Sequence record: PZ445410.1
DNA: 51,474 nt
Origin: a phage
Reading direction: 5' to 3' (one strand)
Part shown: positions 31,245 to 35,017 of the stretch, piece after piece
Layout: each line of letters opens with the position of its first letter
How positions within the stretch are numbered: the first letter of the stretch is position 1
The notes under the pieces: model-generated
Seen by the model: the letters and a program-made list of their open reading frames with translations, nothing else
Told to the model about the DNA's origin: nothing
The model's database searches: none
Program-made: the position numbers and the translations under genes

Positions 31245-31946
31245 TCAGCCGCAACAGCCAGTAGGCGGAGTCTGAGGAGTAGGCAACTTGAAGTTTACCA
31301 ATTGCTCTACCTGGTTGATTTTGCAATTCAGTGCGGCGGTCTGGTTTGCCTGAGATAGAGCAAAACGCGCTTCCTGCAACTGAGCTTTCATATCGCAAAT
31401 CAAAACAGCCTGAGAATCAGCAAACTGTTGACGAATCAGATCTCGCGTTGCGTTACCTTGTCGCTCAATGTTCAGGTTAGTCTCGCAGCAACATCTTTCG
31501 GCTGCAATCTGCGCCTGATAGGAACGCTCAAGAGCATTAACATCAGCAGCATTAATCGCAGCAACTGTCTGGTTAGTACCGCTAACAATCGCGGTATTCA
31601 GTCCGGCAAAACCTTGCACCGATGCAAGCAGGCTTTGCGTATTCTGGCTGGTAATGCCGTTAAATGTTGATGCGGCGGAGCGCTCAACGGTAAGGTTTGT
31701 GGAGTTTTGGCCTTGCAGAGTTTGCAGCCCCAGGTTGTTTACGCCTGTCTGGATGTTATTAATACCATCAAGAACAGCGTTAGCACCGACAGCAACAGCA
31801 GCACCATCACCACCATAACCACCACGACCATTAAAGCCATTACCAAACCAAGACCCAATCAGGCCACCAACAGCACCGCCAAGACCAGCCGCGCCAGCTT
31901 CGCCACCAAAACCACCACCAGTAGGGAGTAAAGTCATATCTGACAT
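31245..31946 (-). CDS. glycine-zipper protein with Cys-rich C-terminus (233 aa)
   Basis: N-terminal GGGFGGEAGAAGLGGAVGGLIG; Q/N/T-rich middle; CCCE and terminal TGCCG; own AT-rich upstream region. Confidence 0.5.
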   Translation of the reverse strand: MSDMTLLPTGGGFGGEAGAAGLGGAVGGLIGSWFGNGFNGRGGYGGDGAAVAVGANAVLDGINNIQTGVNNLGLQTLQGQNSTNLTVERSAASTFNGITSQNTQSLLASVQGFAGLNTAIVSGTNQTVAAINAADVNALERSYQAQIAAERCCCETNLNIERQGNATRDLIRQQFADSQAVLICDMKAQLQEARFALSQANQTAALNCKINQVEQLVNFKLPTPQTPPTGCCG

Positions 31947-32115: not shown

Positions 32116-32793
32116 TTAAATGTTGTTATTTTTTATTGATTCAATTTGGCTTTTTAATTGCTCTATTTCTTCTTTCATCCGTTTCACATGATGAATTAGC
32201 GGAACAACCAAACGCTCATACATAACGCCTTCTGCAACCATGCCATTGCTTGAGGCGATTTCTGGATCATCACCTTCTTGTAATGGCCTCCAGTGAACGT
32301 ATTCAGACGCAATCTCTCCAACTTCTTCGGCGATCAGTCCATACCAACCCCAATCTTTTCTGTCATTCTCGCAAATCGACCGATACCAGACAGGACGCAT
32401 GTCAAACATTCGATCTGCATATTCATCCATAACAGTTTCAACAGATCTTTTGTATCTTTCGGAAGACGTTGAACGAAGAACGCTTGACACTGCGGCATCT
32501 GGATTGAGATACAAGTTTGCGCCAGCGGTTGTTGTTCCAAGTCTAAAAAAGTAAACGGCCTCTTGTGCTGTTAATGGGTAAAAGTTTCCGCTATGTGTTC
32601 CGCCCTCTAATTCATTTGAAAGCTCGCTTTTCTTCATGTACGTCTTTAACTTGTTGTCAACGTCAGAGCTTGATGGCTTTGTGTTAACTTCTTGCTGCAA
32701 CGTGGAAACATTGCCTTGCAACGTGGAAACATTGCCTTTTAAAGCAGTTATATCAGCCGGAATATTTGTTACGGTAGCCATGATTAAGCCCAC
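32116..32793 (-). CDS. short tail-fibre-like protein carrying a C-terminal S74 intramolecular-chaperone domain
   Basis: SSERYKRSVE (compare SDERLK-type cleavage motif), WGWYGLIAEEVGEI and terminal coiled coil resemble the fibre chaperone domain as I recall it; only ~110 aa precede it. Confidence 0.5.
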   Translation of the reverse strand: MGLIMATVTNIPADITALKGNVSTLQGNVSTLQQEVNTKPSSSDVDNKLKTYMKKSELSNELEGGTHSGNFYPLTAQEAVYFFRLGTTTAGANLYLNPDAAVSSVLRSTSSERYKRSVETVMDEYADRMFDMRPVWYRSICENDRKDWGWYGLIAEEVGEIASEYVHWRPLQEGDDPEIASSNGMVAEGVMYERLVVPLIHHVKRMKEEIEQLKSQIESIKNNNI

Positions 32794-33062
32794 TCCCTAA
32801 GTTTTTGATCCGTCACAACGGTTCTGCTATTGAATAATTTCGCATCGTAATTATCATTAATGATGCGAGCGTTCACAAAATAACCATCATTTTTCTCTAC
32901 AATTTCCTCTCCTTCTTCCGTTACAGATACAACAGTGTAAGTGTTCCCGATAACGTCGAGAAGAATTGCATCCTGAATGGATTCGTTTTCGTTCCATTCA
33001 ATTTCTTCAAGAAAGGCAGAAAACTCTGCCTTGTCTGCAAATTTCAGTGTTAAATCTCTCAT
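32784..33062 (-). CDS. hypothetical protein (92 aa), possible fibre assembly factor
   Basis: ORF coupled between fibre gene and S74-domain gene. Confidence 0.4.
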   Translation of the reverse strand: MRDLTLKFADKAEFSAFLEEIEWNENESIQDAILLDVIGNTYTVVSVTEEGEEIVEKNDGYFVNARIINDNYDAKLFNSRTVVTDQKLREWA

Positions 33063-35017
33063 TATACAATTTCCCCCAATTGATGATCTGTTAATGCCTT
33101 ATGCCAGATCCTAAAGTTTCTAATGTGTCCAAACAAATGGCGCTCTCCAGTTCCTGTTTGTCCGCCAAACCTGATATTTTTATCTCCTGTTACGCCTATG
33201 TAATCGCAGTATGAATCAGACACTGCTATAGCATTGGTGACAACATGAAATTTGCCATCAGATTTTGCAATGCATCCAAAAGTGGATTTTTTTGCAAACA
33301 CATCAGATGCCGCGCTATTAATATATGCCCCAGCAGGCGTTGATAAACTCATGTATAATTTTCCACTTCCTCTATTTATTGCCGCAATTGCTGATTGACC
33401 AGTATTTGCAGCAGCTATATCCCAAACACGAGGGGCAGAATTTGGAGCAACATCCCAACACTTACTAACCTCAAGCAAAAAAGTAAACGGCAATTTATAT
33501 AGGTTGTTTTTTGTTGGAATGCTAACAAGATCGCTAGCTCTCGTTGTTGGCATTGAAGTTATAATAAATGACGATGCTGTATTTCCAAGTTCAATTTGCG
33601 GCGTAGCCATCGTTAACGTTGAATCAGAATAAAATGGTTCGTTGTTAATTTTATTAGTCATGTAAAATGCACAATTAACAGTGTCAACATTTGTATTGGC
33701 TGTATATGTCGCTTGATAATACATCCATTCGCCATCCTGTTCCACTTTAGCGGTTATAAGTGAAGTGTCTCCACTTACCGATGCAACCAAAGTATCAAGA
33801 TCCAAATAAGAATCAGCAGAAAATGTATCTACTCCATCAATAATTGTAGACACTCGAAGCCTGCATCTTGCTTTAGCACCTTTAACCCTACAAGAAAAGG
33901 TGAAACTTTCACCTGACACCAAAGGGAATCTATCGGCTGTAACAACTCCATGAACGGTATAACCTCCAGTAGTACCAACAATACTTTCTACAGGGGTGAC
34001 TGTAGCGTAGTTAAAACCACGATCATCCGTTCCGAAAGTTTTATTTAAAGAAGAATGAATAGTCCAAGAATCTGTTTTATTTGAGTTTCTTAGATAGTTA
34101 GTTCTTTGCCCTTCGATTAAAAGACCTTCTTTTTCAAAACGAGGTTCGTCAATCTCCGCAACAGTCAATACACCTGATTTGTTAATATAAGTTGCTGTTG
34201 AAGCGCGTGAAAATGTAACTACTTTATCTGTTGGCATAGTTATAACATCATTACCAACTGTTATTTTTTTGTAACCAGGTGCAAAGCCTGTAATCATCTC
34301 AAGAGAATCATTAAACGGTATCCACACGTCGGGCAGCGGTTGCAATAAATCTTTGTAAGGTTCTGCGGCCTGCCTTGCGTATTCCTCCGCTTGATCTCGC
34401 GCACTTTCAGCTCCTGCCTTTGCAGTGTTCGCAGCGTTACGCGCGGATTCAGCGCCAGACTTTGCTGTTTCAGCGCCAGTCTTTGCAGTGTTTGCAGCGT
34501 CGCGCGCGGATTCAGCAGCGGTCTTTGCAGTATCAGCGCCTTTCTTGCTGTTTTCTGCATTTGTTGCGCTTTTCTTCGCGTTATTCTCGCTAGTTTTAGC
34601 GGCCTTCTGGCTTGCTGCGGCCGCAGCAGCATCGCTCTTTACGTCAGCCTGTATCTGTTGAAGTTTATCCCAATCAAATGTTTCGATGATCTCAATGAAT
34701 CTGGCAAATTCAGTTTCTTTACCCTGGTAATATCGCAGTGTTTCAGCGACATCTTGCGCCAGGCCATCAACAGTTATTGAATCATGAAGCATGATCAGAT
34801 AGTTTGTCTTTGCTACAACAGCGCCGCCAGTAGTAATGGCGCGAATGCTTGTGTCGCTAATAACCTCAGTGATTACAGCGGCTTGCATTGGATTTGTTAA
34901 GAAAAATATTGTTGCACCAGGGCGAATGAGTGTTAGCTGTTCGCGCCATTTTGTGCCGTATCCAGTTATATAACCTTGCGCGTCCATTGACGCCTGTCCG
35001 GTTCTGTAAATTGCCAT
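33062..35017 (-). CDS. side tail fibre protein
   Basis: T7 gp17-like N-terminal virion-attachment region, Ala-rich tandem repeats, C-terminal lectin-like region; GGGAG RBS at chosen ATG. Confidence 0.65.

What the first reader, a model, noticed from the sequence alone, without database searches (positions are those of the whole stretch)
32116..32793. Stand-alone mini protein carrying an S74 intramolecular-chaperone-like domain
The last ~115 aa of this 225-aa protein (SSERYKRSVE..., WGWYGLIAEEVGEI..., terminal coiled coil) look like the autocleaving C-terminal chaperone domain normally fused to the end of long fibres or tailspikes. Here it is attached to only ~110 aa with a short NVSTLQ repeat, while the adjacent 651-aa fibre lacks such a domain. 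It may be a trans-acting chaperone for the neighbouring fibre or a minimal trimeric fibre.
Basis: partly seen in the sequence, partly recalled or inferred. Interest (0 to 1): 0.6.

Follow-up and report, generated by a model that had tools for sequence, protein, structure and literature searches.

The report
Minimal distal tail-fibre subunit with self-cleaving chaperone
This small gene in a T1-like coliphage most likely encodes the shortest known version of the outer piece of a multi-part side tail fibre, carrying its own self-cleaving folding domain; the family is common and already annotated, so the finding is real but fairly ordinary.

Summary
Window 32116-32781 (-) encodes a 221-aa protein; the true start is the ATG at 32781, not the GTG at 32793. 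Its C-terminal ~116 aa form a Peptidase_S74 intramolecular chaperone (IMC), with the Ser106/Lys111 dyad and the GLIAE trimerisation motif. The 651-aa fibre upstream has no S74 domain.

The gene is not a curiosity. Full-length homologues occur in 47 phage records, mostly Drexlerviridae, and in thousands of E. coli prophage copies. GenBank already labels them 'peptidase S74 domain-containing protein' or 'putative lateral tail fiber chaperone'.

It is the third gene of a conserved module: proximal fibre with a lectin-like C-terminus, a 92-aa protein, then a distal protein. The same module occurs in T5-like, Queuovirinae, Dhillonvirus and lambdoid phages. All distal proteins examined share the N-terminal motif M(A/V)TxTxIPxDITxLK, and all but Dhillonvirus KarlBarth's end in S74. 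One is IrisVonRoten Gp24, which published AlphaFold-Multimer models place on the proximal fibre Gp22.

The best reading is a minimal distal fibre subunit: anchor, heptad coiled coil, generic ~45-aa tip, then an IMC that acts in cis and cleaves at Thr105-Ser106. dN/dS is about 0.18. A trans-chaperone role is less likely but not excluded.

Verdict: new member of a known kind, with modest interest.

The parts
32116..32781 (-). Gene for the 221-aa mini S74 protein (stop codon 32116-32118). It is the distal subunit of the lateral tail fibre module.
   Evidence: ORF. Start and RBS. Homologues begin at the same Met. dN/dS 0.18.
32793..32797 (-). Shine-Dalgarno GGGAG, 11 nt upstream of the ATG. The upstream gene's TAA lies at 32784-32786, so the two genes are translationally coupled.
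   Evidence: Read directly from the sequence.
32737..32781 (-). Residues 1-15, MATVTNIPADITALK: the N-terminal anchor motif shared by all third-gene products of this module. Its role in docking to the proximal fibre is inferred.
   Evidence: Alignments of Hanrivervirus, Warwickvirus, E. coli prophage, JenP1, VogelGryff, KurtStettler, IrisVonRoten, EC100 and KarlBarth proteins. Attachment of Gp24 to the proximal fibre is taken from PMC11990801.
32696..32738 (-). Perfect 21-bp tandem repeat, two copies, encoding the heptad GNVSTLQ twice. Copy number and coiled-coil length vary among homologues.
   Evidence: TRF. One heptad is missing in morffagbaw and extra repeats are present in orkinos, AV105, P0014 and P0016.
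32608..32781 (-). Residues 1-58: anchor plus heptad-repeat segment, predicted helical and probably a trimeric coiled-coil stalk.
   Evidence: Heptad register. AF2 helices 12-32, 38-48 and 51-58, at low confidence in a monomer model. Weak similarity to the P22 gp26 needle and T4 fibritin coiled coils, E 0.02-0.4.
32467..32607 (-). Residues 59-105: short beta-rich tip module (…GNFYPLT…GTTTAGANLYLNP…VLRST). It would be the C-terminal end of the mature fibre.
   Evidence: Homologous to the last ~65 residues before the cleavage site in long E. coli prophage fibres P0060, P0061, P0065 and P0068. The TTxxxAN motif is conserved family-wide.
32449..32475 (-). Residues 103-111, RST|SSERYK: predicted autocleavage site Thr105-Ser106 with Ser106 and Lys111 as the catalytic dyad.
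   Evidence: Pfam profile position 1 aligns to Ser106. S104, S106, S107, Y110 and K111 are invariant or nearly invariant. The pattern matches T5 pb1 Thr1263-Ser1264/Lys1269 (PMC4690869) and MYRF S587/K592 (PMC3742440).
32119..32466 (-). Residues 106-221: S74 intramolecular chaperone domain (13.7 kDa), including the GLIAE trimerisation motif (148-152) and the C-terminal helix 188-219.
   Evidence: The GVIAQ motif is described in PMC3742440.
32084..32111 (-). Intrinsic terminator: 10-bp stem, 4-nt loop and a U-run, immediately after the stop codon. It marks the end of the fibre operon.
   Evidence: RNA fold -20 kcal/mol, z = -2.1. Sequence.
32784..33062 (-). 92-aa acidic protein (phrog_1361), the middle gene of the module. 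It travels with the proximal-fibre C-terminal module, and its function is unknown.
33062..35017 (-). 651-aa proximal lateral tail fibre: lineage-specific N-terminus, Ala-rich coiled coil, then a hypervariable GTA-head-spike-like and ConA/lectin-like C-terminal half. It has no S74 domain.
   Evidence: Pfam, NCBIfam and PHROG results. Mosaic identity profile. 37% identical to the C-terminal half of IrisVonRoten gp22.

Best explanation
The gene encodes the minimal form of the distal subunit of a multi-part lateral tail fibre.

The operon at 35017-32084 (-) makes three proteins:
- a 651-aa proximal fibre, whose N-terminus fixes it to the virion and whose C-terminal half carries hypervariable lectin-like domains;
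- a 92-aa accessory protein;
- this 221-aa protein.

Proposed mechanism, all steps inferred. Three copies of the 221-aa chain are brought into register by the C-terminal S74 intramolecular chaperone, which acts in cis on its own N-terminal half. Once the short tip (residues 59-105) and the heptad coiled coil (residues ~9-58) have trimerised, Ser106 and Lys111 cut the Thr105-Ser106 bond. The 13.7-kDa chaperone leaves. What remains is an 11.2-kDa-per-chain trimeric stub, which docks by its conserved N-terminal motif MATVTNIPADITALK onto the distal end of the proximal fibre and forms the fibre's outermost tip.

In relatives, the same anchor and the same C-terminal chaperone flank large receptor-binding bodies (351-576 aa). 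Here that body is absent. Host-glycan specificity therefore probably resides mainly in the proximal fibre's lectin-like domains, and the stub is a small generic T5-like tip or cap.

Shown here: domain identity, dyad conservation, synteny, the shared anchor motif and purifying selection. Inferred: trimerisation, cleavage, docking and presence in virions.
For: (1) S74 identity:
- Pfam PF13884 just above its gathering score and PHROG tail-fibre C-termini.
- 2689 representative homologues; in the 150 best listed the match is nearly always C-terminal.
- AF2 confident for residues 115-221, with Foldseek hits to MyRF ICA 7dc3 and, far more weakly (E 3.8-7.3), endoNF IMC 3gw6.

(2) Catalytic and trimerisation motifs are invariant or nearly invariant across homologues: S106, K111 and G148-xIAE. 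They match T5 pb1 Thr1263-Ser1264/Lys1269 (PMC4690869) and the MYRF S587/K592 dyad plus GVIAQ (PMC3742440).

(3) The three-gene order fibre, ~92-aa gene, S74 protein is conserved in:
- phiE31-2, morffagbaw, JLBYU16 and PeterMerian;
- an E. coli prophage;
- IrisVonRoten and EC100, T5-like;
- VogelGryff, KurtStettler and JenP1, Queuovirinae.

(4) All third-gene products share M(A/V)TxTxIPxDITxLK at the N-terminus, and the six relatives scanned have a Pfam S74 domain towards the C-terminus.

(5) IrisVonRoten Gp24, one of these, is modelled by AlphaFold-Multimer as a distal fibre attached to proximal fibre Gp22, which has a protruding galectin-like C-terminal domain (PMC11990801). The window fibre's C-terminal half is 37% identical to that region of Gp22.

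(6) Residues 39-105 are homologous to the terminal tip segment of 588-1243-aa E. coli prophage fibres. The N-half is therefore fibre-tip material, not a chaperone-specific domain.

(7) The gene is under purifying selection: dN/dS is 0.18 in two independent close pairs, and dS is saturated at dN 0.24 between genera. It has an RBS, is translationally coupled, and is followed by a terminator.

(8) Cryo-EM of BASEL phages shows that S74 domains are absent from mature virions (bioRxiv 10.1101/2024.10.28.620165), consistent with cis action followed by release.
Against:
- The monomer AF2 model is unreliable for residues 1-114 (pLDDT <50).
- The Pfam score is only 0.4 bits above threshold.
- The mature part would be very small, with only ~27 non-generic, non-coiled-coil residues, so it is unclear what a distal stub adds.
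- 6 of 47 phage records carry frameshifted copies, all Warwickvirus phages and most isolated on E. coli K-12. The protein is therefore dispensable at least on rough laboratory hosts.
- The Harms lab annotated the PeterMerian orthologue as 'putative lateral tail fiber chaperone'.
Confidence: 0.65

Rival explanations
1. Trans-acting chaperone or assembly clamp. The protein is never a lasting virion component. Its S74 domain, or the trimer it nucleates, helps the neighbouring 651-aa fibre, which lacks its own IMC, to trimerise or fold, and is then discarded.
For: The adjacent fibre has no S74 domain. GenBank annotators named orthologues 'putative lateral tail fiber chaperone' and 'chaperone of endosialidase'. 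The mature part is very small, so a purely structural or receptor role is not obvious. The gene is tightly co-transcribed with the fibre.
Against: - Homologous proximal fibres with the 92-aa gene occur without any S74 third gene in lambdoid ev058 and ev207 and in rV5-like FFH2.
- The same 'chaperone' label was applied to 388- and 510-aa orthologues that clearly have fibre bodies, and a 574-aa orthologue, IrisVonRoten Gp24, is modelled as a distal fibre.
- The N-half is homologous to fibre-tip segments of long fibres.
- The proximal fibre's C-terminal half consists of globular lectin-like and beta-sandwich domains rather than the triple-beta-helix tip that IMCs are known to fold (PMC4690869).
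- The mini protein is 95% conserved between the window and morffagbaw, while fibre residues 301-600 are only 24-40% identical.
- There is no similarity to known trans fibre chaperones in Pfam or NCBIfam.
Confidence: 0.15
2. Independent short fibre or whisker. A self-sufficient mini trimer attaches elsewhere on the tail or baseplate, not to the 651-aa fibre, and acts as a second, separate receptor-binding protein.
For: The protein has all the elements of a trimeric fibre: coiled coil, tip and IMC. Other unrelated short S74 proteins of 190-290 aa exist in metagenomes.
Against: It is always encoded directly after the proximal fibre and the 92-aa gene, across five phage groups with unrelated tails. 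The anchor motif is conserved across siphoviruses with very different baseplates, which argues that the partner is the co-transferred proximal fibre module rather than a lineage-specific tail protein.
Confidence: 0.1
3. Evolutionary remnant. The gene is a decaying leftover of a longer S74 fibre, truncated by recombination, and is no longer functional.
For: PHROG and representative-search hits align it to the C-terminal ends of 600-1400-aa fibres. Frameshifted copies occur in 6 of 47 phage records, and truncated copies occur in prophages.
Against: - dN/dS is 0.18, and the reading frame is intact across two genera and in prophages.
- It has a dedicated N-terminal motif that is not an internal fragment of long fibres.
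- It has a proper RBS, translational coupling and a terminator.
- The frameshifts are independent, lie mostly in short homopolymer runs, and sit in otherwise undecayed sequence. They are therefore recent events or sequencing errors.
Confidence: 0.05

Closest known systems
Distal lateral-tail-fibre subunit of T5-like phage IrisVonRoten (Gp24, the 'T-shaped' fibre) with proximal fibre Gp22 and Gp23 (PMC11990801)
   Same: - Same three-gene order.
- The proximal fibre C-terminal half is 37% identical, and the 92-aa protein is 42% identical.
- Same N-terminal motif: MVTKTVIPTDITKLK versus MATVTNIPADITALK.
- Both have a C-terminal Pfam S74 domain followed by a coiled coil.
   Different: Gp24 is 574 aa and carries two receptor-binding domains, one Gp12-like and one T5-like. 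The window protein is 221 aa and has no such body. Their IMCs are only ~25% identical overall, and the window's tip and IMC are closer (51-60%) to E. coli prophage side-tail-fibre ends.
Phage T5 L-shaped tail fibre pb1 C-terminal domain with intramolecular chaperone (PDB 4UW7/4UW8; PMC4690869)
   Same: A C-terminal chaperone of ~115-133 aa that trimerises and is auto-cleaved at a Thr-Ser bond, with a Lys five residues after the Ser. A central coiled coil is present. The mature tip lies immediately upstream.
   Different: pb1 is a single 1396-aa polypeptide with a ~290-aa bullet-shaped receptor-binding domain. Here the substrate is ~105 aa, on a separate polypeptide from the main fibre. No sequence hit to PDB entries was obtained.
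K1F endosialidase C-terminal intramolecular chaperone (Peptidase_S74, PDB 3GW6) and the MYRF ICA domain (PDB 7DC3)
   Same: Same Pfam family, the same Ser/Lys dyad spacing, a G(V/L)IA(Q/E) trimerisation motif, and a matching predicted fold.
   Different: Those domains chaperone large tailspike stalks or a eukaryotic transcription factor. Foldseek TM-scores are modest, 0.39 on the query and 0.59 on the target, because only half of the model is confident.
Orthologues already in GenBank: phiE31-2 gp018 'peptidase S74 domain-containing protein', PeterMerian bas05_0029 'putative lateral tail fiber chaperone', Jahat_MG145/JK16/SECphi27 'chaperone of endosialidase', and E. coli 'tail fiber domain-containing protein'
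   Same: 64-97% identical full-length proteins of 215-245 aa in the same gene context.
   Different: None of substance. One heptad more or fewer, and a different last ~10 residues in phiE31-2 caused by a 1-nt deletion.
Trans-acting tail-fibre assembly proteins (lambda/Mu Tfa, T4 gp38/gp57A)
   Same: A small gene downstream of a fibre gene.
   Different: No sequence similarity in Pfam or NCBIfam. The S74 fold is unrelated.

Membership tests
Peptidase_S74 / intramolecular chaperone auto-processing domain (Pfam PF13884) | Profile match at or above the curated gathering score | tested here: met
   22.4 bits against a cut-off of 22.0, profile positions 1-57 of 58. This is marginal, but orthologues score 26.7-55 bits, and phmmer finds 2689 representative relatives.
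Peptidase_S74 / intramolecular chaperone auto-processing domain (Pfam PF13884) | Catalytic Ser-Lys dyad with the Lys five residues after the scissile Ser, preceded by Thr/Ser | tested here: met
   T105-S106…K111 in RSTSSERYK. S106 and K111 are invariant in alignment A6 and invariant or nearly invariant in A2. The pattern is as in T5 pb1 and MYRF.
Peptidase_S74 / intramolecular chaperone auto-processing domain (Pfam PF13884) | G(V/L)IA(Q/E) trimerisation motif and a C-terminal helical coiled coil | tested here: met
   G148-LIAE152 is invariant or nearly invariant. AF2 helix 188-219 has pLDDT 78-91. The motif is described in PMC3742440.
Peptidase_S74 / intramolecular chaperone auto-processing domain (Pfam PF13884) | Fold of solved IMC domains | tested here: met
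   Foldseek top hits are 7dc3 (MyRF ICA; probability 1.00, E 5e-3, TM 0.39 on query and 0.59 on target), and much more weakly 3gw6. Only residues 115-221 of the model are confident.
Peptidase_S74 / intramolecular chaperone auto-processing domain (Pfam PF13884) | Autoproteolytic release after trimer folding | not testable with these tools
   Needs expression with S106A and K111A mutants. Expected fragments are 11.2 and 13.7 kDa.
Distal subunit of the bipartite/tripartite lateral tail fibre (IrisVonRoten Gp22-Gp23-Gp24 type) | Encoded directly downstream of a proximal fibre with a lectin-like C-terminus and a ~92-aa gene | tested here: met
   Window 35017-32116, and identical order in 10+ loci from five phage groups.
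Distal subunit of the bipartite/tripartite lateral tail fibre (IrisVonRoten Gp22-Gp23-Gp24 type) | Shared N-terminal anchor motif M(A/V)TxTxIPxDITxLK | tested here: met
   9 of 15 residues are identical to IrisVonRoten Gp24, against ~25% identity overall.
Distal subunit of the bipartite/tripartite lateral tail fibre (IrisVonRoten Gp22-Gp23-Gp24 type) | Physical attachment to the proximal fibre in the virion | not testable with these tools
   Only single-chain AF2 was available. For Gp24 the attachment is itself an AlphaFold-Multimer prediction in PMC11990801.
Distal subunit of the bipartite/tripartite lateral tail fibre (IrisVonRoten Gp22-Gp23-Gp24 type) | A sizeable receptor-binding body between the anchor and the IMC | tested here: not met
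   Only ~90 residues, coiled coil plus a generic tip, lie between the anchor and Ser106, compared with 190-450 in JenP1, VogelGryff, KurtStettler, EC100 and IrisVonRoten. It is therefore a reduced variant, not a typical member.
Trans-acting tail fibre assembly/chaperone proteins (Caudo_TAP/Tfa, gp38, gp57A) | Sequence membership in a known Tfa/gp38/gp57A family | tested here: not met
   No such hit in Pfam at E<=1, in NCBIfam at E<=0.1, or in PHROGs at E<=0.01.

The most novel reading that the evidence does not exclude
An 'intramolecular' chaperone used between molecules. The mini protein would act as a detachable trimerisation clamp. Its IMC-driven trimer docks through the N-terminal anchor onto the C-terminal end of the IMC-less proximal fibre and nucleates or locks that fibre's trimer from the distal end. 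It then self-cleaves, leaving only an 11-kDa cap. This would be a natural split of fibre and IMC across two genes.
Probability: 0.12. Interest if true: 0.65.

Novelty: new member of a known kind. Interest (0 to 1): 0.3.

Why it matters
The finding clarifies an annotation problem. Orthologues are variously labelled 'chaperone', 'tail fiber protein' or 'hypothetical'. The comparative evidence shows that they are one gene family, the distal subunit of a mobile three-gene lateral-fibre module. That module is exchanged among Drexlerviridae, Queuovirinae, Dhillonvirus, T5-like and lambdoid phages.

The 221-aa form is the smallest natural substrate-plus-IMC unit seen in this family here, with ~105 mature residues. 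That could make it a convenient model for studying IMC-driven trimer folding and cleavage, and a compact anchor-plus-IMC scaffold for grafting receptor-binding domains onto these fibres.

It does not reveal a new mechanism unless the trans-clamp reading proves true.

Tried and rejected
- Sequence search of the PDB with the protein found only weak coiled-coil hits to P22 gp26 and T4 fibritin, E 0.02-0.4. A profile built from alignment A2 found nothing, probably because of its heterogeneous N-terminal columns. The link to solved IMCs therefore rests on Pfam and Foldseek.
- NCBIfam gave nothing for the mini or the 92-aa protein.
- Monomer AF2 gives no usable model for residues 1-114. No multimer prediction was available, so docking could not be tested.
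- The pseudogene/remnant idea was rejected on dN/dS, the conserved start and the anchor motif.
- I considered that the frameshifted copies might reflect programmed slippage in the heptad repeat. This was rejected. The indels lie elsewhere: +C in a C-run in orkinos and AV105, +CC in JLBYU10, and -G in ityhuna. Those in orkinos/AV105, JLBYU10 and ityhuna are at three different positions.
- The primary endosialidase IMC paper (PMC2666599) could not be retrieved, so I make no claim about published trans-complementation tests.
Full report
**Context.** The window is a T1-like coliphage genome of the family Drexlerviridae, subfamily Tempevirinae. The 4.2-kb region around the finding is 98.2% identical to Escherichia phage phiE31-2 (Hanrivervirus). 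In that phage the orthologous gene is already annotated 'peptidase S74 domain-containing protein'.

**The observation.**
- The ORF at 32116-32793 (-) is intact.
- Its real start is almost certainly the ATG at 32781, giving 221 aa and 24.9 kDa. A GGGAG lies 11 nt upstream, the stop codon of the preceding 92-aa gene lies 2 nt upstream, and all homologues begin MATVT or MVTKT.
- A 10-bp-stem intrinsic terminator follows the stop codon.
- Pfam Peptidase_S74 matches residues 106-162 of the 221-aa protein at 22.4 bits, just above the 22.0 gathering score.
- This marginal score is backed by several results. PHROG matches fall on the C-terminal ends of tail-fibre families. There are 2689 representative homologues at E<=1e-3, and in the 150 best the match nearly always sits at the extreme C-terminus of 300-1400-aa proteins. 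AF2 is confident for residues 115-221, and Foldseek's top hit is the MyRF ICA domain 7dc3, with the endoNF chaperone 3gw6 appearing only as a weak, non-significant hit (E 3.8-7.3).
- The sequence RST|SSERYK places a Thr105-Ser106 bond and Lys111 exactly as in T5 pb1 (Thr1263-Ser1264, Lys1269; PMC4690869) and MYRF (S587/K592; PMC3742440).
- G148-LIAE matches the GVIAQ trimerisation motif. These residues are invariant or nearly invariant among homologues.
- The 'NVSTLQ repeat' is a perfect 21-bp tandem duplication encoding the heptad GNVSTLQ twice.
- The 651-aa neighbour has no S74 domain. It carries a GTA-head-spike-like domain and a ConA/lectin-like C-terminal domain.

**How common it is.**
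- Full-length homologues (57-97% identity) occur in 47 phage records. Nearly all are Tempevirinae, with a few lambdoid phages.
- They also occur in large E. coli prophage clusters, with 650 and 2928 member sequences.
- Existing names include 'putative lateral tail fiber chaperone' (PeterMerian), 'chaperone of endosialidase' and 'tail fiber domain-containing protein'.
- The gene is under purifying selection. dN/dS is 0.18 for window versus morffagbaw and for JLBYU16 versus PeterMerian. Between genera dS is saturated at dN 0.24.
- The mature half evolves somewhat faster than the chaperone half, with dN 0.30 versus 0.19.

**Gene context is the key evidence.**
- The operon is fibre (651 aa), then a 92-aa protein, then the mini protein, then a terminator.
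- The same order occurs in an E. coli prophage, in T5-like IrisVonRoten and EC100, and in Queuovirinae VogelGryff, KurtStettler and JenP1. Dhillonvirus KarlBarth has it with a non-S74 third gene.
- The fibre's C-terminal half is found in 204 phage records and the 92-aa gene in 167.
- All third-gene products examined begin with M(A/V)TxTxIPxDITxLK.
- The six relatives scanned contain a Pfam S74 domain, C-terminal in all but KurtStettler, where it is internal because of the gene fusion described under 'Side observations'. Their lengths form a series: 221-231, 227, 351, 388, 510, 574 and 576 aa.
- For IrisVonRoten, the BASEL-2 paper models Gp24 as a T-shaped distal fibre attached to the proximal fibre Gp22. 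Gp22's galectin-like domain protrudes from its C-terminus (PMC11990801).
- The window fibre's residues 301-651 are 37% identical to that part of Gp22, and the 92-aa protein is 42% identical to Gp23.
- The window protein is therefore the shortest allele of this distal-subunit gene.

**Anatomy of the mini protein.**
- Residues 1-15 form the anchor motif.
- Residues ~9-58 are heptad repeats, with weak similarity to the coiled coils of P22 gp26 and T4 fibritin. Repeat number varies between homologues.
- Residues 39-105 are homologous to the last ~65 residues before the cleavage site of 588-1243-aa E. coli prophage fibres.
- The stretch from about residue 70-83 onward (GTTxxxANxYL…LRSTS) is conserved across the whole S74 fibre family. 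This suggests it is the generic element that the chaperone folds.
- Only about 27 residues are neither coiled coil nor generic.
- After cleavage, the mature chain would be 11.2 kDa and the released chaperone 13.7 kDa.

**Where specificity probably lies.**
- The proximal fibre is mosaic. Residues 1-250 are lineage-specific.
- Residues 251-300 are 72-80% identical in every lineage compared.
- Residues 301-600 are hypervariable: 6-52% identical in most comparisons, but 80-88% identical to lambdoid Lambda_ev058 over residues 301-500.
- Residues 601-651 are 50-66% conserved.
- Between the window and morffagbaw, the mini and 92-aa proteins are 95% and 93% identical, while the fibre's residues 301-600 are 24-40% identical.
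- The variable, receptor-facing element is therefore the proximal fibre's lectin-like region, not the mini protein.

**Trans-chaperone rival.** There is no positive evidence for it.
- Proximal fibres with the 92-aa gene occur without an S74 third gene in lambdoid ev058 and ev207 and in rV5-like FFH2.
- The 'chaperone' label has also been given to 388- and 510-aa orthologues that have obvious fibre bodies.
- IMCs are known as cis-acting folding caps for intertwined beta tips (PMC4690869). Cryo-EM shows they are absent from mature virions.
- The rival cannot be excluded without experiments, because the mature stub is so small. I give it 0.15, which includes a more novel 'trimerisation clamp' variant.

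**Remnant rival.**
- Six of 47 records have frameshifts. The four loci examined carry +C in a C-run (orkinos and AV105), +CC (JLBYU10) and -G (ityhuna).
- The indels in orkinos/AV105, JLBYU10 and ityhuna lie at three different positions in otherwise undecayed sequence.
- All six are Warwickvirus phages, and most were isolated on rough E. coli K-12, where lateral fibres are reported to be dispensable (PMC8594841).
- These are recent events or sequencing errors, and they show dispensability in the laboratory rather than decay.

**The 92-aa protein.**
- It tracks the proximal fibre even where the distal gene is absent. Its function, chaperone or connector for the proximal fibre, is therefore probably tied to that fibre. 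This is inference.

**Side observations.**
- The next gene, 31245-31946 (-), encodes a 233-aa protein with a Gly-rich N-terminus and a Cys-rich C-terminus. It is 69% identical over 181 aa to the C-terminal part of KurtStettler's third-gene product. There it is fused in frame directly after the IMC core.
- This suggests that the gene is a fourth, conserved neighbour of the module.

**Verdict.**
- The family is common and already annotated, and similar distal fibres have been described.
- Novelty is therefore 'new member of a known kind', and interest is modest (0.3).

Noticed in passing
window 31245-31946 (-): This 233-aa protein (phrog_9288, unknown function; Gly-zipper-like N-terminus, Cys-rich C-terminus ending in CCG) is 69% identical over 181 aa to the C-terminal part of the KurtStettler third-gene product (510 aa). 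There it is fused in frame right after the S74 core. It may be a fourth conserved member of the fibre module.
   Followed up: partly
L011:2501-3239, L012:2373-3070, L013:2501-3174, L014:2501-3239 (orkinos, JLBYU10, ityhuna, AV105): tblastn splits the mini S74 gene into two pieces in 6 of 47 phage records. The four examined carry small frameshifting indels: +C in a C5 run (orkinos, AV105), +CC (JLBYU10) and -G (ityhuna). The sequence is otherwise conserved. All are Warwickvirus phages, most isolated on E. coli K-12. The indels could be real loss on rough hosts or sequencing errors.
   Followed up: partly
window 32125-32150 vs L001:4133-4160: phiE31-2 differs from the window by a 1-nt deletion in an A-run near the 3' end of the gene. 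This changes the last ~10 residues (…LKAKLNQ* versus …LKSQIESIKNNNI*) and explains its shorter annotated protein of 215 aa.
   Followed up: yes
window 33062-35017 (-), fibre residues 301-500: The fibre is mosaic. Its residues 301-500 are 80-88% identical to the fibre of temperate lambdoid phage Lambda_ev058, but only 28-40% identical to the same-genus-like phage morffagbaw. This indicates recent exchange of the lectin-like module between virulent Drexlerviridae and lambdoid prophages. Residues 251-300 are 72-80% conserved in all lineages compared.
   Followed up: partly
window 34401-34540: A 63-bp tandem repeat (2.2 copies, 81% match) lies inside the Ala-rich coiled-coil part of the fibre gene. 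Related phages have annotated repeat_regions at the same place.
   Followed up: no
search results: Records named 'Campylobacter phage' (A116, A12a, C2) and 'Listeria phage' carry this E. coli-type fibre module, in matches that fall among those of rV5-like coliphages at the same identity. They look like mislabelled or contaminant records.
   Followed up: no
P0130 (representative library): This 116-aa homologue ends exactly at …VLRSTS, the predicted cleavage point. It may be a contig-end fragment, or a natural copy lacking the chaperone. Its source was not checked.
   Followed up: no
L009:5323-5616, L018:4292-4585, L005:2957-3244: In lambdoid phages and prophages, a ~95-97-aa hydrophobic protein (MDISPLLHALCAVAAQ…) follows the fibre module. 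In ev058 and ev207 it directly follows the 92-aa gene, with no S74 gene, and is itself followed by sitABCD cargo genes.
   Followed up: no
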